Notes under the pieces: generated by a model
What the model was told of the DNA's origin: nothing
What the model saw: the letters and a program-made list of their open reading frames with translations, nothing else
The model's database searches: none
In this document: piece after piece, positions 3,241 through 21,640 of the stretch
Numbering within the stretch: the stretch's first letter is position 1
Layout of the letters: each line of letters starts with the position of its first letter
Translations under genes and position numbers: made by a program
Sequence record: ON184125
Length of the DNA: 64,000 nt
Source of the DNA: Escherichia phage PC3
Reading direction: 5' to 3' (one strand)

Positions 3241-3331
3241 TTACAAAGTAACATTGCAGCAATTTGTTCTAAACCTTTGAACAGGGTGTGTTAACCACAT
3301 ACCCTATTCCCTACAAATAGAGGACTTTATC

Positions 3332-3652
3332 ATGGCTAACAGCATCCCGATTTTAGAAGCGGTCGTAAAAGAGAACCCTCGTGCGCGCAAATCACGTCGC
3401 CGCCTGACCACCAAACTGGATATTCTGAAACAGAAGTTCGGCGACCACAGCGTGTTCACTCGCATTCGCAATGCAATAAAGGAAGGGCGAACTGAGCTGG
3501 AGCTATATCGACCGAACGGTTCGACACGCGCGTATCAGACCACTGACGGCTTACTGGAACTGATCCGCCTGAGCGGGATGACGATCGAACCTCGTTCGTC
3601 AGGTACTCCTCTGTGCTCCCTGTACGTAATCGGCAATCTTGGGGCGCTGTGA
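3332..3652 (+). CDS. Hypothetical basic protein (106 aa)
   Basis: ORF with AGAGGA SD-like sequence; Arg/Lys-rich N-terminus. Confidence 0.5.
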   Translation: MANSIPILEAVVKENPRARKSRRRLTTKLDILKQKFGDHSVFTRIRNAIKEGRTELELYRPNGSTRAYQTTDGLLELIRLSGMTIEPRSSGTPLCSLYVIGNLGAL

Positions 3653-3656
3653 TTCT

Positions 3657-4079
3657 ATGAAGAAGTATATCGTTCTCATTACGGGTTCCCGCTCAATCAC
3701 CGAGCGGGATAAGGTATTCGCCAAGCTGGACGAACTCTTGGATCCTCGTGAGGTCTATACACTGATTGAGGGTGAAGCCTCTGGTGTAGACAAGATTTGC
3801 CGTGATTGGGCTGAAATCAATTATGTTCATATCACTCCTATGCCAATACCTCCGAGCTATTATGAAAAGTATGGGAAAGGGATGGGCAACAAACGCAATC
3901 AGGACATGTTAGACAAGGCATTGGATCTCGTCAGACAGACCAAGCTGGAAGTGTATCCGATTGCGATGTGGGATGGTTCGTCCACTGGCACCCTGGACAT
4001 GATCAACCGTTGCAAGAAAGCTGGCCTCCCTGTGGATATCACTCTAATGGGTAAGCCGAAGACCAAGCGCCTTTTGTAA
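3657..4079 (+). CDS. SLOG-superfamily (DprA/LOG-like, DUF2493-like) Rossmann-fold protein
   Basis: Starts MKKYIVLITGSRSITERD; GSR-type glycine-rich motif and overall pattern as in phage YspA-like SLOG proteins; assignment from motif memory only. Confidence 0.45.
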   Translation: MKKYIVLITGSRSITERDKVFAKLDELLDPREVYTLIEGEASGVDKICRDWAEINYVHITPMPIPPSYYEKYGKGMGNKRNQDMLDKALDLVRQTKLEVYPIAMWDGSSTGTLDMINRCKKAGLPVDITLMGKPKTKRLL

Positions 4080-4119
4080 CATACCATAAATAATTGAATA
4101 CACACAGCGGAGATACATC

Positions 4120-4290
4120 ATGTTTGTCGTCATCAATCTGTTCTGTTATATCTTCACGGCGTACTTCTTGGGCGCGGTAGGGATCGAGACCTACAATGAC
4201 CTGAAGGATGGGGAATACGCCAACCGAATGGTTTATGTCAAGAAGTTTGTTCGTAAGTTCTGGTCCAACTTCGTTTACAAACTACCATGA
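4120..4290 (+). CDS. Hypothetical small membrane protein (56 aa)
   Basis: Unlisted short ORF MFVVINLFCYIFTAYFLGAVGI... after GGAG; hydrophobic N-terminus; stop overlaps next ATG. Confidence 0.3.
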   Translation: MFVVINLFCYIFTAYFLGAVGIETYNDLKDGEYANRMVYVKKFVRKFWSNFVYKLP

Positions 4291-5523: not shown

Positions 5524-6249
5524 ATGATGTCCAGCATACCCTTGTCACAAGTAGGAACGCTGGCCGACAACGTCACAGGTACAGTGCGCACTTCTGGGTT
5601 CCAGAATTCGGAAACAGAAATTATTGGCGTGACAAAGATGCGACAGCTCGTAAACAAGAGCATCGAGCATGCCAACAACAATCTACTGATCCCGCGCATC
5701 AGGGTCACAAAATATCTCCACAGCAAAGGTGCTATTATGTCCAACGTACAATTCAAGAACGAAAACCCTAATTTCGCGGCGTCCGATAAGTGGCGTCTGA
5801 CTATCGGAGACCTTATACTCCTAACCCGTAACATACACGACTTCAGTATACCAGGAGTGTACTCCGAAGGCATCGATGGTCCGTCTCCTGGTGACGTGTT
5901 GGTTTCTATACCTTCAGAGCGTTTAACCTATGACCCCGTCGTATTTACTTTCGTTATAGACGAGGACTGGAAATCATGGTTACAGATCCACCAATGGATT
6001 ACCAGCAACGTCGGCAAGGATTTGCCTGTCAGCAAGGACATTACCATTGAATTGCTGGATAACCTCAACCGACCGATTGGCCTCACTCTCGTGCTGGAGG
6101 AAGCCCGCCCGACTGCTTTGGACAACGTACTGGTGGACGTAGACGCGGCTGTACCTCAGCTGGTGACGACAGTGACCTTCAAGTTCCAACAGCTGGTTCC
6201 ACTATCTGGTGGGAAGGCGATTGATTCTAATCCGCAAAATGCGGTATAA
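5524..6249 (+). CDS. Hypothetical protein (241 aa)
   Basis: ORF 5389-6249 trimmed to MMSSIPLSQ... so it does not overlap the minus-strand gene; start uncertain. Confidence 0.4.
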   Translation: MMSSIPLSQVGTLADNVTGTVRTSGFQNSETEIIGVTKMRQLVNKSIEHANNNLLIPRIRVTKYLHSKGAIMSNVQFKNENPNFAASDKWRLTIGDLILLTRNIHDFSIPGVYSEGIDGPSPGDVLVSIPSERLTYDPVVFTFVIDEDWKSWLQIHQWITSNVGKDLPVSKDITIELLDNLNRPIGLTLVLEEARPTALDNVLVDVDAAVPQLVTTVTFKFQQLVPLSGGKAIDSNPQNAV

Positions 6250-6279
6250 TTCTATGACATTGACAAGCTGGGATATTTT

Positions 6280-6732
6280 ATGAAAGAACAACTACAGACA
6301 ATGGCTACCGAGGACATCATGAACGAACTGGAGCCGCTGATCACAGTGGACCCAGAAGACATGAACCTTGACCAGATCTCACTGAAAATCGGGCGCTCTT
6401 GGATGGCTGTGCAGCGGCATTATCTGCGCGAGGGACGTTATCTTGAATTTCTCAACGGGCGCTTCCGCCAAATCGATCTCTATCTGCGCCGCTACTATGC
6501 AGGGGAGTTACCCCCTAACATCTACGCAGATCGCCCCCTGAAGGTTCGCCCCCTGAAGTCTGACCTAGATACATGGGTCAAAGCAGACGATGACTATGTG
6601 GAGTTGTCTGTTCTGTTACAAGAACAAAAAGCAAAAGTCAAGTTCATAGAGACTTGTTTGGATCGCCTAAACAAACTGGGATACGAAGTGAAAAATGCTA
6701 TTGAGTGGAGAAAATATATTGATGGTGTATAA
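6280..6732 (+). CDS. UvsY-like recombination mediator (tentative)
   Basis: 150 aa; YYAG motif and C-terminal C..LD..G..K.I pattern resemble T4 UvsY; lies two genes upstream of a UvsW-like helicase. Confidence 0.4.
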   Translation: MKEQLQTMATEDIMNELEPLITVDPEDMNLDQISLKIGRSWMAVQRHYLREGRYLEFLNGRFRQIDLYLRRYYAGELPPNIYADRPLKVRPLKSDLDTWVKADDDYVELSVLLQEQKAKVKFIETCLDRLNKLGYEVKNAIEWRKYIDGV

Positions 6733-14033: not shown

Positions 14034-15254
14034 ATGAAAGATAAAGCCCTGGACGTCCCGTACTGCGGTGTCCGTGAAGAAAAGATAAAGTCGGCCAAAC
14101 CGGTTCTCAGTCCGACCCATACCAGCCTGTCTTACGAATGGATGCGCGATCGTTATCAGATCCACGTCAAGAAGGACGTCCAGCGCCTTCCTGCTCCTTG
14201 GACTGATAATCCCATATTACGGCAGGTCAAGTTCTGTAACGTCCGGAGAGAGCACGACAGGCAGTCTCTCAACCTGATCAACAACATCGTCAACAACGAT
14301 GCTCTGGGTATGGCCGACAAGATGTTCAACTGCGTGATGTTTCGCATGTTCAACCTCTGGGATCCAATCCAGGCTATCGGCGGCGCGATGACGATCAAAG
14401 AATTCGCCGAGATCAACCTCGATGCAACCCGCGAACGACTTCAGAAGTTCGAGGCCGACGGCGGTAAGGTATTCACCAATGCCTTCAACACGGGCGGCCT
14501 GAAGCAATGCCTGGCTTTCCCTGAGATGGTTGTCAACCACAAGGAGCAGCGCTTCGGTGGGATGATGGTGAATCTGATCTGTAAAGATGGTTCAACCCAG
14601 AACATGGATTATAAAGAAGCCAAGGCGATAGCCGAAGCAGAACCGGACTTCTACACCATCGAAGGTTGGGAACCGTACATGCCAATGCGTGTCATCCGCT
14701 CCCTGAAGGCATTCGTCAACAAGTATCCAAATTATTTCCATGACCTGCTGCGCCTTGGTACTCCTTTGGAAGTATACCAGCGCATGTACGACGACATCGA
14801 AGGGCTTGGTCCATTCCTGGCCTATCAGATCTGGGTAGACTTCACTTACATTCCTGAATATCCTTTCAGTGAGAACCACTTCACGGTTGCTGGACCAGGC
14901 TGTCGCGCAGGGATCGACCTGATGTTCCAGGACAAAGATGGCATGACGCATGAAGAATGCATCTTCTGGTTGCGGGACAATCAGGACGCGGTTTATGGCC
15001 CTCTTGGGTATAACAGGGAAGAATTTTGGTCTGCGGAAGAGCCTTGGGATCGCCATTTAAATATAATGGCAGGAGAAAATATGTTTTGTGAACTTCAGAA
15101 ATATACCCGTTGTGTAGAGGCCATACAGCAAGGTAAAAAGCCGCGCGGGAAGGTTGGATATGACGGCGGTGGGGAATACAAAAAGCGCTGTGATGAAGTC
15201 GTGCTCAAACGTGGTTCCGTCAATTTGCTGGACCGTTTGAAGAAACCTGAATAA
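14034..15254 (+). CDS. Hypothetical protein (406 aa)
   Basis: Well-formed ORF with AGAGGA SD; no motif I can assign. Confidence 0.5.
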   Translation: MKDKALDVPYCGVREEKIKSAKPVLSPTHTSLSYEWMRDRYQIHVKKDVQRLPAPWTDNPILRQVKFCNVRREHDRQSLNLINNIVNNDALGMADKMFNCVMFRMFNLWDPIQAIGGAMTIKEFAEINLDATRERLQKFEADGGKVFTNAFNTGGLKQCLAFPEMVVNHKEQRFGGMMVNLICKDGSTQNMDYKEAKAIAEAEPDFYTIEGWEPYMPMRVIRSLKAFVNKYPNYFHDLLRLGTPLEVYQRMYDDIEGLGPFLAYQIWVDFTYIPEYPFSENHFTVAGPGCRAGIDLMFQDKDGMTHEECIFWLRDNQDAVYGPLGYNREEFWSAEEPWDRHLNIMAGENMFCELQKYTRCVEAIQQGKKPRGKVGYDGGGEYKKRCDEVVLKRGSVNLLDRLKKPE

Positions 15255-15368: not shown

Positions 15369-17387
15369 ATGTCAGATTTTAAGCCCTTCGCAGTAGCTGT
15401 CAACAATAACGTGCTGGCCATGTCAGCAACTGGTCTGTTCATGACCAACATCGATAAAGATGCTCTGTGGGATCTGTATCTGTCTTCTTTCCCTGCTGGC
15501 ACTAACCCGCTTTATCGTGAGCGTACCGAGCACGACTGCACCTGCTGTAAACAATTCATCCGTAACATCGGCGGTGTGGTCACCATCGACTCCGACCTGA
15601 ACGTGATCTCTATCTGGGATAACATTCAGCTGGGTAACGAATACGACGTTGTCGCTGCGGCGCTGTCAGCATATGTTAAGCAGCACGCAATCGTCGACGT
15701 GTACTTCAACGACACCAAGAAAGTTGGTGTTGAGTCGAATCACGAAATGAAAGACGGTATTGTCCGCACCTACAACCACTTCCACACCGACCTGCTGGGT
15801 AGCTATGTTCTGCGGGCAGATACCATCGCTTCTAAGAAGGGTGAAATCCGCCAGGCGATTGAAGTGTTTGAGCGCGGCCTGCGTGAACTGTCTCTGGAAT
15901 CGGCTGAAATCGTTCTTGAATTGATTGACCAGAATTCTCTGTATCGCGGTGAAGAGCACAAAGCGGCAGTGCAGGCGTTCGTGGTGAACAAGACCCTGTA
16001 CGAACAAACTGCAGAAGAGAAACGCGCTCTGTGGGCTTGGCGCACTGGCTACCGTGCAAACGGTCATACCCCTCACGGCATTCGTAATACCGTGATTGGC
16101 TCTCTGCTGGTAGACCTCAATGAAGGTCGGGATCTGGAAACCGCCGTGAAGTCCTTTGAAGCCAAAGTCGCTCCGACGAACTACAAGCGCCCAACCGCGC
16201 TGGTCACGAAGTCGATGATTGAAAACGCGCAGAAAGAAGTCGAAGCACTGGGTCTGACTGATTCACTGGGTCGCCGTTATGCCGTGTATGACGATCTGAC
16301 CATCAACAACGTTCTGTTCGCCGACCTAGCAGCTCAGAAGAAGATGGACCCGTTTGCTCAGCTGGCGTCTGAAGTGAAGACTCCGACCAAGTCCCTGGAC
16401 AAGGTTGAAGAGATCACGATCGACGACTTCCTGACCAACGTGTTGCCAAAGGCGCATTCCCTGGAAGTGCTGGTCGAAAACTCTCACATTGGCAACCTGA
16501 TGTCCCTGATCGCTCCGGCCACCGCAGGCGCTCCTAACCTGTTCAAGTGGAACAACGGCTTCAGCTGGTCGTACAATGGCGAAGTGGCCGACTCCATCAA
16601 AGAGCGCGTGAAGACCGCAGGCGGCAATGTCGACAGCTTCCTCCGTGTGTCACTGGCTTGGCATAACAACGACGACCTGGATCTGAGCCTGAACGATCCT
16701 CTTCACAACCACGTGTATTATCACAACCGTCGTTCGACAACTGGCGCAACTCTAGACATCGACATGAACGGTATGGACGGCATTGATCCAAACCGCCGTC
16801 CGGTGGAGAACATCTTCTTCAGCGATGAACGCAAGCTGCGTGATGGTCTGTACGAGTTCTATGTCACTAACTTCAGCCAGCGTGAAACCTGTGATATGGG
16901 ATTCGAAATCGAAGTTGAATACAAAGGCCAGACCAAGCGTTTTTCGCATCCTGGCCTGAAGCACAAAGATCGCACTCTGGCTGTTGTGATTGATGTCCGC
17001 GCTGGACAAGTGGTAGACATCCGTTCTACCCTGAAAGACGACGCTCGCTCTCAGGAAATCTGGGGCATCAAGACCTCCGTCTTCCAGAAGGTACAGCTGG
17101 TTCTGAACTCACCAAACCATTGGGACGGCGAGCAGACTGGCAACAAGCACGTGTTCTTCATCCTGGAAGGTTGTGTTAACCCTGTCGGCACCCGTGGTTT
17201 CTATAACGAATATCTGAAGCCGGAACTTGATAAACACCGCAAGGTTTTTGAAATGTTAGGCAGTAAGATTAAAGTACAGCCAAGCACTGAGCAGCTGTCC
17301 GGTCTGGGCTTCTCTACCACCCAACGCAACCACGTGTTCGTGAAGGTGAGCGGTTCTTTCAACCGCACTGTGAAAGTTGTGTTCTAA
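15369..17387 (+). CDS. Hypothetical large protein (672 aa)
   Basis: Long ORF with AGGAAG + attacatcATG context; no motif I can assign. Confidence 0.55.
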   Translation: MSDFKPFAVAVNNNVLAMSATGLFMTNIDKDALWDLYLSSFPAGTNPLYRERTEHDCTCCKQFIRNIGGVVTIDSDLNVISIWDNIQLGNEYDVVAAALSAYVKQHAIVDVYFNDTKKVGVESNHEMKDGIVRTYNHFHTDLLGSYVLRADTIASKKGEIRQAIEVFERGLRELSLESAEIVLELIDQNSLYRGEEHKAAVQAFVVNKTLYEQTAEEKRALWAWRTGYRANGHTPHGIRNTVIGSLLVDLNEGRDLETAVKSFEAKVAPTNYKRPTALVTKSMIENAQKEVEALGLTDSLGRRYAVYDDLTINNVLFADLAAQKKMDPFAQLASEVKTPTKSLDKVEEITIDDFLTNVLPKAHSLEVLVENSHIGNLMSLIAPATAGAPNLFKWNNGFSWSYNGEVADSIKERVKTAGGNVDSFLRVSLAWHNNDDLDLSLNDPLHNHVYYHNRRSTTGATLDIDMNGMDGIDPNRRPVENIFFSDERKLRDGLYEFYVTNFSQRETCDMGFEIEVEYKGQTKRFSHPGLKHKDRTLAVVIDVRAGQVVDIRSTLKDDARSQEIWGIKTSVFQKVQLVLNSPNHWDGEQTGNKHVFFILEGCVNPVGTRGFYNEYLKPELDKHRKVFEMLGSKIKVQPSTEQLSGLGFSTTQRNHVFVKVSGSFNRTVKVVF

Positions 17388-17431
17388 ACCTGATTTGAAA
17401 TTGTAACCCATTCATCATTGAGGATAGTAAA

Positions 17432-17803
17432 ATGTTTGATAAAGCAACCCGTATGAAACTGCGCTTCGAGTCTAACAAAGGTCTGCTGTCTGTTGAGCAG
17501 GTCTGGGACCTGAGCCTGACTGCCCTGAACGAAATGGCGAAAGGTCTGAGCCGTCAGGTGAAAGCAGCAGAAACCGATGAAGAAGATTTCATTGGCACCA
17601 AAAGCAACGTTGACTCCGAACTGCAGCTGCGCTTCGACGTTGTCAAGCACATCATCGGCGTTAAGCTGAAAGAACGTGACGACAGCAGAGAAGCGGCAGA
17701 GCGTAAGGCGAACAACCAGGTTATCCTGGAGCTGATCCAACGTAAGAAACAGCAAGAGCTGGAAAGCAAATCTGTTGAAGAACTGGAAGCACTCCTGAAA
17801 TAA
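17432..17803 (+). CDS. Hypothetical protein (123 aa), charged, coiled-coil-like C-terminus
   Basis: ORF with GAGGA SD, followed by terminator. Confidence 0.5.
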   Translation: MFDKATRMKLRFESNKGLLSVEQVWDLSLTALNEMAKGLSRQVKAAETDEEDFIGTKSNVDSELQLRFDVVKHIIGVKLKERDDSREAAERKANNQVILELIQRKKQQELESKSVEELEALLK

Positions 17804-17825
17804 TCTGTCTGACCTCAGCCTGAGC

Positions 17826-17854
17826 AACCCCGCCATGTGCGGGGTTTCTTTTGG
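17826..17854 (+). terminator. Rho-independent terminator
   Basis: aaccccgc-catgt-gcggggtt stem-loop followed by TCTTTTGG. Confidence 0.7.
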
Positions 17855-17863
17855 ACAAAGAAT

Positions 17864-18238
17864 ATGAAACCTGTCATTTGTGATTACTGCGGCCTCCCAG
17901 CCGAATTCGTCGGTGGTGATGTTCTCTACCCTCATCGCCCTGACCTCCGCAATCTGAAGTTCTGGGTGTGCACTCCATGTGATGCCCGTGTCGGTTGCCA
18001 TACCCATGGCGACGGCAGACAACCTTTGGGAAGGATGGCGAATGCCGCTCTCCGTGCTGCTAAGCAGGAAGCCCATAGATCGTTTGACCCATTGTGGAAA
18101 AGCGGAGAGAGGAGCAGGAGCGACGCTTATAGTTGGCTGGCGCATAAGCTGGGGATAAAGAAGCGTGAGTGTCATATTGGCTTGTTCGATATCGACATGT
18201 GCCGTAAAGTAGTGGAGGTCTGTAAACAAATATCATAG
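17864..18238 (+). CDS. Zinc-ribbon protein (paired CxxC motifs)
   Basis: CDYCG ... CTPCD ... C.H cysteine pairs; ORF 17837-18238 trimmed to MKPVICDYCG. Confidence 0.45.
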   Translation: MKPVICDYCGLPAEFVGGDVLYPHRPDLRNLKFWVCTPCDARVGCHTHGDGRQPLGRMANAALRAAKQEAHRSFDPLWKSGERSRSDAYSWLAHKLGIKKRECHIGLFDIDMCRKVVEVCKQIS

Positions 18239-18246
18239 GATAACAC

Positions 18247-19119
18247 ATGACAAATCGTACTGGCATAAAACTCACTCCTGAAGTCCTGAAGTCACATATC
18301 GCTGAGGTGATTTACGAAGACCGCGAAGTCGGCGGTCACCGGGCTATCACTTGTCATTTCAAGATGGATAACGGCTTCGTCGTTCACGGCACCAAGCCCA
18401 GCACATCCATAGACCCGGCCAACTTTGATGAAGCCCTGGGCAAAGAGATTTCCTACAATAATACCTTCGACCAGCTGTGGCAGCTCGAGGCGTACCGGGC
18501 GCTTGTTGAACAAGATCTGTTGGCCAAAGCCACGGAAACGGCAGAGATCCGGATCGATAAATACGCTGTTGAACGTAGCGCCCTCTATCCGGCCTATCAC
18601 CTCGGCTTCAATGTGATGATTCAGGACGTGATGTTCAGAGCGGAAAATGGCGAGCGCTTCTTGGCGTCTTTCGTTTGTGGGCCGGATGACATGGAACTTG
18701 TTGTTGAATCTCACAACGCCAAATCTCGTAAGGCTGTTAGTGATTTCCTGCGCGCCAACTCCAAACTCGATCTCACTTATTCGCCATTGGTTCTGCGCAT
18801 CGCCAAGATTTGTCATGAAGCCAACCGCGCATACTGTAAGTCTGTTGGTGACGACTCTCAACTGCCTTGGGAACAATCTCCGGCCTGGCAACGTGAGAGC
18901 GCTTGCAAAGGTGTTATCTTCCATCTCACTGGTGATCGTAAGCCCAGCGAATCACATGAGAGATGGATGGCGGAGAAGGAGTCTGAGGGTTGGGTGTATG
19001 GCCCAGTCAAAGACCCTCAGACCAAACAACACCCTTGCATGGTTCCGTATGGAGAACTCCCGGTACAACAACGCTCCAAAGATTATATTTTCAAATCCAT
19101 TGTAGACTCCTTTAAATAA
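18247..19119 (+). CDS. RyR-domain-containing protein
   Basis: C-terminal GWVYGPVKDPQTKQHPCMVPYGELP matches the RyR-domain signature as I recall it. Confidence 0.5.
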   Translation: MTNRTGIKLTPEVLKSHIAEVIYEDREVGGHRAITCHFKMDNGFVVHGTKPSTSIDPANFDEALGKEISYNNTFDQLWQLEAYRALVEQDLLAKATETAEIRIDKYAVERSALYPAYHLGFNVMIQDVMFRAENGERFLASFVCGPDDMELVVESHNAKSRKAVSDFLRANSKLDLTYSPLVLRIAKICHEANRAYCKSVGDDSQLPWEQSPAWQRESACKGVIFHLTGDRKPSESHERWMAEKESEGWVYGPVKDPQTKQHPCMVPYGELPVQQRSKDYIFKSIVDSFK

Positions 19120-19153
19120 GCTCTGAATAATATTTCAACCTGTCAATAATATA

Positions 19154-19186
19154 ATGCCCGGTTATATTCAATCGGGCATTTTTATT
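19154..19186 (+). terminator. Rho-independent terminator
   Basis: atgcccg-gttatattcaat-cgggcat stem-loop followed by TTTTTATT. Confidence 0.7.
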
Positions 19187-19193
19187 ATATTAA

Positions 19194-19224
19194 TTGACAT
19201 CAATACCGCCTGTCGTAATATAAT
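19194..19224 (+). promoter_or_regulatory. Sigma70-like promoter (TTGACA, 17-19 bp spacer, TATAAT)
   Basis: ttgacatcaataccgcctgtcgtaatataat just after a terminator and upstream of ORF 19270. Confidence 0.45.
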
Positions 19225-19269
19225 AGTTCCATGTTGAAATAGTTGGGAAATATAACTCACGAGAGCCTG

Positions 19270-19446
19270 ATGACCGACAACAAATTAAAACGTGCCGGAC
19301 TTGATTGTCTTGACAAATCATTCCGCCCCAGTGATGTTCTGGTCGCCCAAATGGAAAACAACCGGGATTTCATTGAAACTATGCTGGAGAACGCCGACGC
19401 GAACTCCAAACACTCCAAAGCCCAAAAAGGTCAAAACGATGATTGA
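19270..19446 (+). CDS. Hypothetical small protein (58 aa)
   Basis: ORF 19243-19446 trimmed to ATG after GAGAG; overlaps start of vWA gene by 8 nt. Confidence 0.3.
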   Translation: MTDNKLKRAGLDCLDKSFRPSDVLVAQMENNRDFIETMLENADANSKHSKAQKGQNDD

Positions 19447-21640
19447 ATCATTAACATTTAAGAATGCGGTTGCGACCGTCGCGCCGTCTAACCATGTAAT
19501 CGTTGTGGATATCTCCGGTTCCATGTATCGTTCACTTCCAGAAGTCCGTAAGCATCTGAAGGAGAACATGCCTTCCCTGGTGAAACCCGAAGATACTGTG
19601 AGCATCCTTTACTTTTCATCTCGCGGTGATTTCGGAACGGTATTTGCCGGGCGTCAGATCGGTGCCGCATCTGACCTGAGCGAGCTGAACAAACTGATCG
19701 ATCGCTTCCTGCAACCGTCCGGATGTACTGGCTTTGTTGAGCCGTTGAAACTGGCAATGGACACTGCTCGTGGCCTGAAGAAGCCTGGCTATGTCAACAA
19801 CCTGGCGTTCATGACTGACGGGTATGACAACTGCTGGCGTACCAACGAAATTCTACTGGTTGCTGAGACCCTGCCATTTGCTTTCGATAACATTACATTT
19901 ATCGAATATGGCTGGTACTGTAACCGCGAACTGCTGGCGCAGATGGCCGAACGCTCTGGTGCTACTCACGTGTTTGCCGAAGGTCAGACCGAATACCAGA
20001 CCGAGCTGGAAAACGTGCTGAAGTCATCAGTGCCGAAGGTGGTTGTTGATGTGCCTCTGCTATACACCCACGCCATCTATGTTGAAAACGGCGTAGCAAC
20101 TGTTCTGGCGGTACAGCCGGATGAAGACCATCCTATCGGCCACGTGAGCATCCCTGAGAGCGTCGCCAAGCTGTGGGTTGTAAACCCTAACATGATCGAC
20201 CAGCTTGATGCGCTGGCGGATATCCAGGCGGCATACGTGCTGGCGTTCTACGGCGTACACATTATGGACGCGGACCTGGTGTGGGCTGCACTGAAGAAAA
20301 CGGGTGACGTTCGCTTCATCAAACAGTACAGCAACTGCTTCACCAAGCAGGACTACTCCAACATCAAAGTTGATCTGACCCAGGCCATCGTTGATGACCA
20401 GCTGCGCGGCGTTGACGGTATTGACTATGACCTGGTTCCGGCTGAAGATGCGACGACCGTCGTTGACGTGCTGACGTATCTGGCTGAAGCTGGCGTGTGT
20501 GTTGCTACCAAACATCCTATGTTCTCCTACAAGAGCATCGGGCGCGGTACTGTGCAGAAAACCGACGACACCGAAGACAAGCTGGCAGAACAGATCGCGA
20601 ATGCTCAGTCCAAAGAAGAGCGTAAAGCCCTGGCTCTCAAGCTGGCAGAGCACGAAGAGTGGAACCCGACGTTCGAACCTACCAACGACCTGGGTGTTGT
20701 GCCAATCAGCGATTTGGTCTATAACTCCGAGCGCCCGAACATCAGTGTGCGTACAATTCAACACGGTACTGTGGCTGTGCCTGAATTCGCACAGAAGAAG
20801 TTTGGCCTGCCTGAAGAACTGGATACTTTCCAGTGGCGCAACTACACCATCGTCAAAGACGGTATCATTAACGTGAAGACTCTGCCGTTCAAGGCTGATA
20901 TCGAAGTTGTACAGAAGCTGATCGAAATGGGTGTCCACGTGTTTGGTGGTCCGGAAGTGTTTGTCCTGAACCTGGAAAGCGTACCGCTGGTCAACCGCGC
21001 CATGGTCAAAAACATCAGTGCTGCTCAGTTCTTTGCGGATAATGTCCGTCTGGAAGCCCTGAAAGGCAAGCAGAAGGTGCTGAAGTTCTATCGAGACGCC
21101 CTGGTTGGTAAGGGTAACGCCAAAGGCCTGGCAGTACAGTACGGCGCTGAGGCGGCCGAGTTCCTGTCCTCCTACGGTATCCGCGATTACGGCTTCTCAC
21201 CGAAGACTGAGACCAAAGAGTCTACCGACTTCTACATGAGCCGTGAGCTGAACGTTAAGATCGCCGGGGCGTCTTCACTACCGAGCATCGCGGCAGTACA
21301 GAAGAAGATTGCCGAGAACAAGAAACTCAATGCTGGTGACTTGTTCATCGCTAATGCGCTGAAGGAGTACGAAGCATTCGTGAAGTCTCCTATGATCACT
21401 GCCGTGCCTGAATCCTTACAGAAATATCTGATCGAAAACTGGATCGACGCTGCTGCCAAGGCGGCCATCACCGAAGTCCGCGCCCTGAACAAGACACTGT
21501 CTAAAGTGGTTTATGGTATCGTTGCTGGTCATGGCTGGTTCACCGACCTCGACCTGGAAGAGTCCACCATGGAAGTTGAAGTGGATGGCGTGAAGTACAA
21601 GGTCACTGCCGAACTGACAGAGAAAGAAATCAAAATCTAA
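19439..21640 (+). CDS. von Willebrand factor A (vWA) domain protein (733 aa)
   Basis: N-terminal VVDISGSMYRS ... FMTDGYDN (MIDAS-like DxSxS and downstream acidic motif); ORF 19292-21640 trimmed to MIESLTF. Confidence 0.55.
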   Translation: MIESLTFKNAVATVAPSNHVIVVDISGSMYRSLPEVRKHLKENMPSLVKPEDTVSILYFSSRGDFGTVFAGRQIGAASDLSELNKLIDRFLQPSGCTGFVEPLKLAMDTARGLKKPGYVNNLAFMTDGYDNCWRTNEILLVAETLPFAFDNITFIEYGWYCNRELLAQMAERSGATHVFAEGQTEYQTELENVLKSSVPKVVVDVPLLYTHAIYVENGVATVLAVQPDEDHPIGHVSIPESVAKLWVVNPNMIDQLDALADIQAAYVLAFYGVHIMDADLVWAALKKTGDVRFIKQYSNCFTKQDYSNIKVDLTQAIVDDQLRGVDGIDYDLVPAEDATTVVDVLTYLAEAGVCVATKHPMFSYKSIGRGTVQKTDDTEDKLAEQIANAQSKEERKALALKLAEHEEWNPTFEPTNDLGVVPISDLVYNSERPNISVRTIQHGTVAVPEFAQKKFGLPEELDTFQWRNYTIVKDGIINVKTLPFKADIEVVQKLIEMGVHVFGGPEVFVLNLESVPLVNRAMVKNISAAQFFADNVRLEALKGKQKVLKFYRDALVGKGNAKGLAVQYGAEAAEFLSSYGIRDYGFSPKTETKESTDFYMSRELNVKIAGASSLPSIAAVQKKIAENKKLNAGDLFIANALKEYEAFVKSPMITAVPESLQKYLIENWIDAAAKAAITEVRALNKTLSKVVYGIVAGHGWFTDLDLEESTMEVEVDGVKYKVTAELTEKEIKI

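What the first reader, a model, noticed from the sequence alone, without database searches (positions are those of the whole stretch)
17864..19119. RyR-domain protein preceded by a zinc-ribbon protein
The 290-aa protein ends in a motif matching the RyR (ryanodine-receptor) domain (GWVYGPVKDPQTKQHPCMVPYGELP), a domain of unknown function scattered in phages. It is preceded by a 124-aa protein with paired CxxC motifs. Both sit between terminators in an accessory block. Function unknown.
Basis: partly seen in the sequence, partly recalled or inferred. Interest (0 to 1): 0.45.

Follow-up and report, generated by a model that had tools for sequence, protein, structure and literature searches.

The report
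Phage fused anti-immune-signal sponge protein
The 290-aa phage protein fuses two domains that other phages use to soak up bacterial alarm nucleotides (an Acb4-type anti-CBASS domain and a RyR-type anti-Thoeris domain), so it is most likely an immune-evasion sponge of a kind described in 2024-2026 preprints; the zinc-ribbon gene upstream is only a lineage-specific neighbour.

Summary
Both ORFs, the paired CxxC motifs, the RyR match (Pfam PF02026, E 2.7e-10, above the curated cut-off) and the two flanking terminators are all present. The window is Escherichia phage PH4 (Ackermannviridae, 100% identity).

- aa 97-178: a lineage-specific beta4-alpha insert with no detectable homologues.
- aa 179-290: a complete RyR/R12 domain.

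"Function unknown" is out of date. Two 2026 preprints show that phage RyR domains bind or cleave the Thoeris signals 2'/3'cADPR. A Salmonella-phage orthologue 97.6% identical to this protein ("H6") was in one test panel. A 58%-identical Pectobacterium domain binds 3'cADPR at 43 nM. All six of its ligand residues are conserved here.

The best reading is a dual sponge: anti-CBASS plus anti-Thoeris, non-enzymatic. The zinc-ribbon protein is DUF3268, probably nucleic-acid binding. It neighbours the sponge gene only within Ackermannviridae.

About two thirds of related phages carry alleles with the RyR ligand core deleted, inside a recombining cassette. I rate this a new member of a known kind, of low-to-moderate interest.

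The parts
17826..17846 (+). Intrinsic-terminator-like hairpin with a U tract. It ends the upstream unit and lies 17 nt before the DUF3268 start codon.
   Evidence: Found by the scan. Folds at -18.5 kcal/mol, z -2.9. Conserved in Marshall and Vi01, with variation only in the loop. Annotated as a terminator in Marshall. The alternative GTG start at 17837, which gives the 133-136 aa forms annotated in some relatives, lies in the hairpin loop.
17864..18238 (+). Gene for the 124-aa DUF3268 protein (PH4_000049): an N-terminal zinc ribbon (C6, C9, C36, C39) followed by a four-helix C-terminal half.
18237..18240 (+). AGGA ribosome-binding site of the 290-aa gene. It overlaps the TAG stop of the DUF3268 gene, 6 nt before the ATG.
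   Evidence: Read directly from the sequence. An RBS is annotated at the equivalent place in Marshall. The 8-nt gap with no terminator or promoter implies co-transcription; this step is inferred.
18247..19119 (+). Gene for the 290-aa three-domain protein (PH4_000050, URX66028.1): Acb4-like domain, middle insert, RyR/R12 domain.
   Evidence: AF2 model with mean pLDDT 92.8. 97.6% identical to homologue H6 (UniProt A0A0C5PQF8) of the RyDEP preprint.
18247..18534 (+). aa 1-96: Acb4-family (PF13876, 'N4 Gp49 / Sf6 gene 66') domain, alpha-beta3-long alpha.
18535..18780 (+). aa 97-178: middle domain (short helix, four strands, long helix). Lineage-specific and absent from shorter Acb4-RyR fusions.
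   Evidence: AF2 pLDDT 91-96 across the region. No Pfam hit. Only its own cluster was found among 1.84 billion representative proteins. hhalign against the N-domain gives probability 6.5%. Missing in the 210-218 aa Acb4-RyR fusions such as P0017.
18781..19116 (+). aa 179-290: complete RyR/Repeat12-type four-helix domain. Predicted cADPR-binding residues are H237, W240, K255, H262, K278 and D279.
19153..19180 (+). Intrinsic-terminator-like hairpin (11-bp stem plus U tract) that ends the two-gene unit.
   Evidence: Folds at -18.4 kcal/mol, z -5.4, with 0 of 200 shuffles as stable. Annotated as a terminator in Marshall.
19194..19221 (+). Sigma-70-like promoter (TTGACA-16-TAATAT, 10 of 12 matches) that starts the next transcription unit. 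It is a boundary marker, not part of the unit.

Best explanation
The 290-aa protein is a fused, non-enzymatic 'sponge' that lets the phage evade nucleotide-signalling immunity.

Proposed mechanism:
- The C-terminal RyR/R12 domain binds and sequesters the TIR-made Thoeris signals 3'cADPR and 2'cADPR (1''-3' and 1''-2' gcADPR). The pocket is lined by H237, W240, K255, H262, K278 and D279. This keeps the ThsA-type effector off.
- The N-terminal Acb4-family domain oligomerises, probably as a tetramer, and sequesters CBASS cyclic dinucleotides such as 3'3'-cGAMP.
- One polypeptide would therefore blunt two signalling defences, as shown experimentally for Acb4-Tad2 and Acb4-Sequestin fusions.
- The middle domain is a lineage-specific spacer or scaffold of unknown role.

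Shown here: domain identities, folds, conservation of ligand residues, recurrent fusion of RyR domains to known sponge domains, and near-identity to a protein used in a published assay panel.
Inferred: actual ligand binding by this protein, its oligomeric state, its in-vivo effect, and its co-transcription with the upstream gene.

The upstream DUF3268 protein is a zinc-ribbon plus helical-bundle protein. It is probably nucleic-acid binding (low confidence). It shares the transcription unit but is not a functional partner of the sponge.
For: RyR domain:
- The Pfam match is above the curated threshold, and the fold is confirmed.
- PMC13232231 reports that phage PF02026 proteins cleave (DyoEdafos RyDEP) or sponge (H4, H7) 2'/3'cADPR and inhibit Thoeris in vivo.
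- Its Supplementary Table lists H6, a Salmonella-phage protein that differs from the window protein at 7 of 290 positions. Only two of these fall in the cloned RyR domain, both at variable positions.
- 10.64898/2026.06.04.730250 reports that Pectobacterium gp68 'RyR Tad' binds 1''-3' gcADPR with Kd 43 nM through H129, W132, K147, H154, K170 and D171. Its C-domain is 58% identical to ours and all six residues are conserved.

Acb4 domain:
- All eight diverse Acb4 homologues tested in 10.1101/2024.12.30.630793 bound 3'3'-cGAMP. The Kuttervirus ViI protein is in that paper's family table.

Fusion logic:
- Among 120 homologues, RyR domains recur fused to PF13876 (Acb4) and to PF24729 (Acb2/Tad1 hairpin).
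- Acb4-Tad2 and Acb4-Sequestin fusions inhibit both CBASS and Thoeris.

Context:
- The locus lies in the replication/early-middle module, and the cassette is variable between close relatives, as is typical of counter-defence genes.
Against: - No binding or plaque data exist for this exact protein or for any full-length Acb4-mid-RyR protein.
- The RyDEP preprint states only that 6 of 8 homologue domains bound 2'/3'cADPR. The text held here does not say whether H6 was one of them, because the figure is not readable.
- Only about half of the SPO1 Acb4 ligand-contact residues are retained. E49, Y57, T70 and K81 are replaced, so the Acb4 domain's ligand could differ or binding could be weak. The Acb4-Sequestin fusion bound cGAMP only weakly.
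- Many close relatives do well with the RyR core deleted, so the activity is dispensable in at least some hosts.
Confidence: 0.72

Rival explanations
1. The RyR domain is an enzyme like DyoEdafos RyDEP: an inverting glycosidase that hydrolyses the ribose-ribose bond of 2'/3'cADPR to linear ADPR, rather than a sponge.
For: The RyDEP catalytic dyad H75/D117 and the ligand residues W78 and H100 align with H237/D279, W240 and H262.
Against: PMC13232231 states that none of the eight tested homologue domains (H1-H8) catalysed cleavage, despite conserved residues. H6 is 97.6% identical to this protein. The closest characterised relative, H7 / RyR Tad, releases intact ligand after SDS treatment, so it is a sponge. 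No NARP1 genes were seen next to the gene.
Confidence: 0.06
2. One or both domains bind a different ligand from the characterised ones, so the protein targets other or additional signalling systems. Candidate ligands are His-ADPR of type II Thoeris, canonical cADPR, ADPR, ATP/ADP, cyclic trinucleotides and 2'3'-cAA.
For: RyR R12 domains also bind ATP/ADP (PDB 6uhh and 9l9b). RyR Tad binds several ADPR-derived molecules. Acb4 contact residues for guanine and phosphate are changed here: E49 to V45, K81 to Q79, Y57 to I55. Gram-negative Acb4 homologues also bind 3'3'-cAA. Two of eight RyR homologue domains did not bind 2'/3'cADPR.
Against: All six gcADPR-contact residues of RyR Tad are conserved at 58% domain identity. 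All eight Acb4 homologues tested bound cGAMP.
Confidence: 0.15
3. DUF3268 and the 290-aa protein form a functional pair. For example, the zinc-ribbon/HTH-like protein could act as an Aca-like repressor of the counter-defence gene, or as a cofactor.
Confidence: 0.1
4. The protein has no counter-defence role. It could be a structural, metabolic-sensing or replication accessory protein that happens to carry nucleotide-binding folds.
For: It lies within the replication module. One relative's record labels a gene under the match 'minor head protein' (H2). There is no direct assay.
Against: Both domains belong to families whose every characterised phage member is a counter-defence sponge or enzyme. 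The cassette is variable between close relatives, which is atypical of essential replication or structural genes. The PHROG families carry no structural annotation.
Confidence: 0.05

Closest known systems
RyR Tad (Pectobacterium phage vB_PatP_CB1 gp68), the same as homologue H7 of the RyDEP study; a sponge-type phage RyR-domain protein
   Same: C-terminal RyR/R12 four-helix domain, 58% identical over 110 aa. All six gcADPR-binding residues are conserved. The domain sits at the C-terminus of a two-domain phage protein.
   Different: gp68 has an unrelated 65-86 aa beta-sheet N-domain with no known activity. The window protein instead has an Acb4-family domain plus an extra 82-aa middle domain. 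Binding has not been measured for the window protein.
RyDEP (Mycobacterium phage DyoEdafos gp78; PDB probably 35tm), a glycosidase-type RyR-domain protein
   Same: Same Pfam family (PF02026) and fold. H75, W78, H100 and D117 are all conserved. Anti-Thoeris role.
   Different: RyDEP is a stand-alone 138-aa enzyme embedded in a NARP1 NAD-salvage operon. The orthologue of the window protein (H6) did not cleave cADPR in vitro, and there is no NARP1 context here.
Acb4 (Bacillus phage SPO1; PDB 9E4W) and the PF13876 family
   Different: About 18-20% identity. Half of the ligand contacts are replaced. Here the domain is the N-terminal module of a larger protein rather than a 96-aa stand-alone tetramer.
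Fused sponges: Acb4-Tad2 (Pasteurella phage Pm86) and Acb4-Sequestin (Pseudomonas phages YH6 and Ab09 gp59)
   Same: Same design: an N-terminal Acb4 domain joined to a C-terminal Thoeris-signal sponge. These fusions are shown to inhibit both CBASS and type I Thoeris. Ab09 gp59 is a tetramer whose Thoeris module is dimeric on its own.
   Different: The Thoeris-binding module here is a RyR/R12 domain, not Tad2 or Sequestin. A structured 82-aa middle domain replaces a simple linker. The papers read here do not mention the Acb4-RyR combination.
Animal ryanodine-receptor Repeat12 domain and Bacteroides thetaiotaomicron 'putative ryanodine receptor' (3NRT)
   Same: Sequence-level homology (E down to 6.7e-20) and fold. 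The adenine-nucleotide pocket residues are shared.
   Different: Animal R12 is a tandem pair of repeats inside a 5000-aa calcium channel. The phage domain is a single repeat, expected to homodimerise, and it has an immune-evasion role.

Membership tests
Phage RyR/R12-domain anti-Thoeris proteins (Pfam PF02026; RyDEP / RyR Tad) | Significant match to the RyR domain profile above the curated threshold | tested here: met
   PF02026 E 2.7e-10, 40.8 bits against a cut-off of 27.4. phmmer hits to RyR R12 structures and to 35tm_A, 3nrt and 6uag.
Phage RyR/R12-domain anti-Thoeris proteins (Pfam PF02026; RyDEP / RyR Tad) | Four-helix R12 repeat fold with a loop/hairpin between helices 3 and 4 | tested here: met
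Phage RyR/R12-domain anti-Thoeris proteins (Pfam PF02026; RyDEP / RyR Tad) | Ligand-pocket residues (RyDEP H75, W78, H100, D117; RyR Tad H129, W132, K147, H154, K170, D171) | tested here: met
   They align to H237, W240, K255, H262, K278 and D279. H237, W240, K255 and H262 are invariant in the 94 homologues that keep the core; K278 and D279 are nearly invariant.
Phage RyR/R12-domain anti-Thoeris proteins (Pfam PF02026; RyDEP / RyR Tad) | High-affinity binding of 2'cADPR / 3'cADPR | not testable with these tools
   The RyR domain of the 97.6%-identical orthologue H6 was assayed in PMC13232231. Six of eight domains bound, but the per-homologue result is only in a figure. H7, at 58% identity, binds at nanomolar Kd.
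Phage RyR/R12-domain anti-Thoeris proteins (Pfam PF02026; RyDEP / RyR Tad) | Glycosidase cleavage of cADPR signals (enzyme subtype only) | not testable with these tools
   The paper reports no cleavage by any of H1-H8, including H6. I therefore do not file the protein under the enzyme subtype.
Phage RyR/R12-domain anti-Thoeris proteins (Pfam PF02026; RyDEP / RyR Tad) | Homodimer through helices alpha1 and alpha4; inhibition of Thoeris in vivo | not tested
   No multimer prediction or experiment is available here. Helices alpha1 and alpha4 are present and conserved, even in the core-deleted alleles.
Acb4 anti-CBASS sponge family (Pfam PF13876) | Significant match to PF13876 and sequence-profile link to SPO1 Acb4 | tested here: met
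   PF13876 E 1.5e-11, 45.1 bits against a cut-off of 27. The profile of 19 N-domains hits 9e4w_A at E 5.6e-8.
Acb4 anti-CBASS sponge family (Pfam PF13876) | Acb4 protomer fold (N-terminal helix, three antiparallel strands, long C-terminal helix) | tested here: met
Acb4 anti-CBASS sponge family (Pfam PF13876) | Conservation of cGAMP-contact residues (K36, F48, E49, V56, Y57, F62, N63, I66, T70, K81) | tested here: inconclusive
   R32, F44, F60, D61 (a backbone contact in Acb4) and L64 are retained or conservative. V45, S54, I55, I68 and Q79 differ. Diverse family members nevertheless all bound cGAMP.
Acb4 anti-CBASS sponge family (Pfam PF13876) | Homotetramer with inter-protomer pockets; binding of 3'3'-cGAMP; inhibition of CBASS | not testable with these tools
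   Needs multimer modelling or SEC-MALS, EMSA and plaque assays.
DUF3268 (Pfam PF11672), for the 124-aa protein | Full-length profile match with the N-terminal CxxC...CxxC zinc ribbon | tested here: met
   E 3.7e-38, 131 bits against a cut-off of 28.4, profile positions 2-120 of 121. C6, C9, C36 and C39 are invariant or nearly so.
DUF3268 RNA motif (cis-regulatory RNA upstream of DUF3268 genes) | Covariance-model match upstream of the gene | tested here: not met
   Rfam scan of 17300-19400 at E up to 1 found only three chance-level hits to unrelated families.

The most novel reading that the evidence does not exclude
The Acb4-middle-RyR protein may be more than the sum of two known sponges.
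- The confidently folded 82-aa middle domain has no detectable homologues. It could be a third ligand-binding or sensor-decoy module.
- Ackermannviridae carry two allele types: RyR-intact (about one third of records) and RyR-core-deleted (about two thirds). The deleted type keeps only the dimerisation helices alpha1 and alpha4.
- This split could record selection by host systems that detect sponging (Panoptes-like guards), so that phages shed the ligand pocket while keeping the scaffold.
Probability: 0.1. Interest if true: 0.6.

Novelty: new member of a known kind. Interest (0 to 1): 0.3.

Why it matters
It turns two "hypothetical protein" annotations, present in dozens of therapeutic-candidate Salmonella, E. 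coli and Klebsiella Ackermannviridae phages, into a testable prediction. Phages with the intact allele should resist type I/VI Thoeris and probably CBASS. Phages with the core-deleted allele should not resist Thoeris. That bears on choosing phages for hosts that carry these defences.

It also adds Acb4-RyR to the list of natural sponge fusions. The papers read here do not mention this combination. This supports "fusion to a known sponge" as a discovery heuristic.

Scientifically it is incremental. The mechanism, the family and even a 97.6%-identical orthologue are already in 2026 preprints.

Tried and rejected
- phmmer of aa 1-180 against PDB found nothing. Only the family profile reached Acb4.
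- NCBIfam has no model for either protein.
- The Rfam scan found no DUF3268 RNA motif or any other credible RNA around the genes.
- tblastn of each domain against the window found no paralogues.
- I tested whether the middle domain is a duplicated Acb4/dsRBD-like domain. hhalign gave probability 6.5%, so this is not supported by sequence. The topology (beta-sheet plus long helix) is similar, but the model coordinates could not be searched one domain at a time.
- phmmer of the middle domain against 1.84 billion representatives found only its own cluster and one spurious hit.
- I tested whether DUF3268 travels with RyR/Acb4 genes outside Ackermannviridae. It does not.
- I could not learn from the text whether H6 bound cADPR.
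- I rejected the longer GTG-initiated ORF (17837, 133 aa) because its start lies in the terminator loop and Marshall and PH4 annotate the ATG.

Full report
**1. What is in the sequence**

The window is Escherichia phage PH4 (ON184126), matching at 100% identity over the queried stretch (window 17400-19200). PH4 is an Ackermannviridae phage whose nearest relatives are Salmonella Kuttervirus phages such as Marshall and Maynard, at 96-98%.

PH4 annotates them as hypothetical proteins PH4_000049 and PH4_000050.

The two genes are 8 nt apart, and an AGGA overlaps the first gene's stop codon. A conserved hairpin with a U tract lies at 17826-17846, and a stronger one at 19153-19180. They fold at -18.5 kcal/mol (z -2.9) and -18.4 kcal/mol (z -5.4). 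Both are annotated as terminators in Marshall, and the first is conserved in Vi01. A strong sigma-70-like promoter at 19194-19221 starts the next unit.

No promoter is evident between the upstream hairpin and the first ATG. Expression therefore probably depends on read-through or on a phage-specific promoter; this is inferred.

The locus lies in the replication and nucleotide-metabolism module: clamp, clamp loader, RegA, NTP pyrophosphohydrolase, 5-hmdU DNA kinase, helicases.

**2. The 290-aa protein has three domains, not one**

Pfam finds two domains, both above their curated cut-offs:
- RyR (PF02026) at aa 235-279, E 2.7e-10.
- PF13876 'Phage_gp49_66' at aa 9-84, E 1.5e-11.

An AlphaFold2 model built on 121 homologues is confident, with mean pLDDT 92.8. 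It shows:
- aa 1-96: a short helix, three strands and a long helix.
- aa 97-178: a short helix, four strands and a long helix.
- aa 179-290: a four-helix domain.

The middle domain has no Pfam match. It has no homologue outside its own cluster among 1.84 billion representative proteins. It shows no significant profile similarity to the N-domain. It is absent from shorter Acb4-RyR fusions such as the 214-aa Kluyvera prophage protein.

**3. What the two recognisable domains do, according to the literature**

*PF13876.* This is the Acb4 family (10.1101/2024.12.30.630793). SPO1 Acb4 is a tetrameric sponge for 3'3'-cGAMP and related CBASS signals. All eight diverse homologues tested bound cGAMP. 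The Kuttervirus ViI protein is in that paper's family table.

*PF02026 in phages.* Two 2026 preprints cover this domain.
- PMC13232231 shows that mycobacteriophage DyoEdafos RyDEP is a glycosidase that opens 2'/3'cADPR. The homologues from Ruegeria (H4) and Pectobacterium (H7) phages are nanomolar sponges that block type I Thoeris in vivo. Six of eight homologue domains bound the signals, and none of the eight cleaved them.
- 10.64898/2026.06.04.730250 independently describes the Pectobacterium protein as 'RyR Tad'. It is a dimer that binds 1''-3' gcADPR with Kd 43 nM through H129, W132, K147, H154, K170 and D171.

**4. How the window protein relates to those proteins**

The supplementary table of PMC13232231 lists homologue H6, UniProt A0A0C5PQF8, from a Salmonella phage. 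It differs from the window protein at 7 of 290 positions, which is 97.6% identity. Only two differences, R239S and S246A, fall in the cloned RyR domain. Both are at positions that vary freely among homologues. H8, from an Erwinia phage, has the same three-part architecture.

The window's C-domain is 58% identical over 110 aa to the RyR Tad / H7 C-domain.
- The six RyR Tad binding residues map to H237, W240, K255, H262, K278 and D279.
- The four RyDEP residues (H75, W78, H100, D117) map to H237, W240, H262 and D279.
- H237, W240, K255 and H262 are invariant in all 94 homologues that retain the core; K278 and D279 are nearly so.

For the Acb4 domain, the conserved G...NF...G core and both stacking phenylalanines are present (F48 to F44, F62 to F60), and K36 becomes R32. 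However, E49, Y57, T70 and K81 are replaced by V45, I55, I68 and Q79. The fold and family are therefore secure, but the ligand preference is not.

**5. Independent support from domain architecture**

Among the 120 closest homologues, the RyR domain recurs in three forms: alone, fused behind PF13876 (Acb4), and in six cases fused to PF24729, the 'Acb2/Tad1 hairpin' domain of two other sponge families.

Fusion of Acb4 to a Thoeris sponge is an experimentally validated design. Acb4-Tad2 from Pasteurella phage Pm86 inhibits both CBASS and type I Thoeris. Acb4-Sequestin from Pseudomonas phage Ab09 is a tetramer that binds gcADPR tightly and cGAMP weakly.

None of the papers read mentions an Acb4-RyR fusion. 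'Acb4' does not occur in the RyDEP main text, and 'RyR' and 'PF02026' do not occur in the fusion-mining paper.

**6. Most likely mechanism**

The protein is a non-enzymatic, oligomeric sponge. Its RyR domain sequesters the Thoeris signals 3'cADPR and 2'cADPR. Its Acb4 domain sequesters CBASS cyclic dinucleotides.

My confidence in the whole dual-sponge statement is about 0.72: about 0.8 for the Thoeris half and about 0.6 for the CBASS half.

The enzyme alternative is unlikely, because the H6 domain did not cleave in vitro. A different ligand spectrum remains possible. Ligand binding, oligomeric state and in-vivo effect are inferred, not shown.

**7. The zinc-ribbon protein**

It is a full-length DUF3268 (E 3.7e-38). 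C6, C9, C36 and C39 are invariant or nearly so and form a zinc ribbon. C45, H71, H104 and C113 are also invariant or nearly so and may form a second metal site; this is inferred.

Its adjacency to the sponge gene holds in a relative only 46-49% identical (L006). It does not hold more widely:
- P22-like prophages carrying an Acb4-RyR gene have no DUF3268 neighbour.
- DUF3268 genes in unrelated phage contigs lie among early, recombination and methylase genes, with no sponge nearby.
- In Vi01 a 68-aa gene is inserted between the two.

I therefore treat DUF3268 as a probable nucleic-acid-binding early protein (low confidence) that merely shares the transcription unit.

**8. Variation among relatives**

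Nucleotide similarity between PH4 and Vi01 runs through the upstream genes and most of the Acb4 domain, stops at window 18510, and resumes at 19348.

Vi01-type phages include Vi01, PhiSH19, ISTP3, allotria, CRW-SP2 and many Klebsiella phages. They encode 241-264 aa alleles with a divergent middle domain and a RyR domain missing about 45 residues, which removes helix 3 and the GWxYGP...HP loop. That deletion takes out four of the six ligand residues. It keeps helices alpha1, alpha2 and alpha4, and alpha1 and alpha4 are the dimer interface in RyDEP and RyR Tad.

Roughly 73-75 of about 238 related phage records carry the intact PH4-type allele. This pattern fits an accessory counter-defence cassette under turnover. 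It also yields a simple prediction about which phages should resist Thoeris.

**9. Verdict**

The feature is a new member of a known kind (a fused nucleotide-signal sponge), with a near-identical orthologue already in a published assay panel. Interest is low to moderate, at 0.3.

The residual open points are the orphan middle domain, the true ligand set of the Acb4 half, the meaning of the core-deleted alleles, and the role of DUF3268.

Noticed in passing
Relatives of window 18511-19347; L011 (Vi01) 3501-4226; proteins P0020, P0024, P0026, P0030, P0037: Most Ackermannviridae relatives carry an allele in which the ligand-binding core of the RyR domain (about 45 aa, including the H, W, K and H pocket residues) is deleted, while helices alpha1, alpha2 and alpha4 remain. 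DNA similarity between PH4 and Vi01 is lost exactly over this part of the gene.
   Followed up: partly
L011 (Vi01) 3302-3508: Vi01 has an extra 68-aa gene (annotated 'putative dnaJ') between the DUF3268 gene and the Acb4-like gene. PH4 lacks it, which is another sign that this spot accepts insertions.
   Followed up: no
Proteins P0044, P0058, P0073, P0078, P0092, P0110 (metagenomic): RyR domains fused to PF24729, the 'Acb2/Tad1 hairpin' domain. This is a third natural pairing of a RyR domain with a known sponge module, and the papers read here do not mention it.
   Followed up: partly
window 14034-15254: A 406-aa protein with a strong match to the 5-hmdU DNA kinase helical domain (PF18723, E 2.5e-79). 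This marks the thymidine-hypermodification pathway typical of ViI-like phages.
   Followed up: no
window 15369-17387 and 19439-21640: Two large conserved proteins of unknown function flank the unit. One is a 672-aa protein (phrog_1735; its orthologue in L006 is tagged DUF8224). The other is a 733-aa protein with an N-terminal von Willebrand A domain (PF00092, E 5e-6), followed by an acyl carrier protein gene.
   Followed up: no
window 17837-17839: The GTG that would give the longer (133-136 aa) DUF3268 forms annotated in Vi01 and other records lies in the loop of the upstream terminator hairpin. Those annotations probably over-extend the gene.
   Followed up: partly
Phage records PQ066595.1 and PP889490.1 (Klebsiella phages phi1_175010 and phi1_146041), hits H52 and H53: The core-deleted homologue is annotated 'anti-CRISPR protein' in these records. 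No evidence for that label was seen.
   Followed up: no
window 17864-17990 (DUF3268 aa 1-42): The DUF3268 family profile has a marginal hit (E 2.4e-4) to the small zinc-ribbon subunit MasE of 1-methylalkyl-succinate synthase (9o8u_D). This is probably just generic zinc-ribbon similarity.
   Followed up: no
L002-L005 (Kluyvera/enterobacterial P22-like prophages) 6001-6645: A compact 214-aa Acb4-RyR fusion without the middle domain sits just upstream of the packaging and portal genes, near DNA methylase genes. The fusion therefore also circulates in temperate phages of Enterobacteriaceae.
   Followed up: partly
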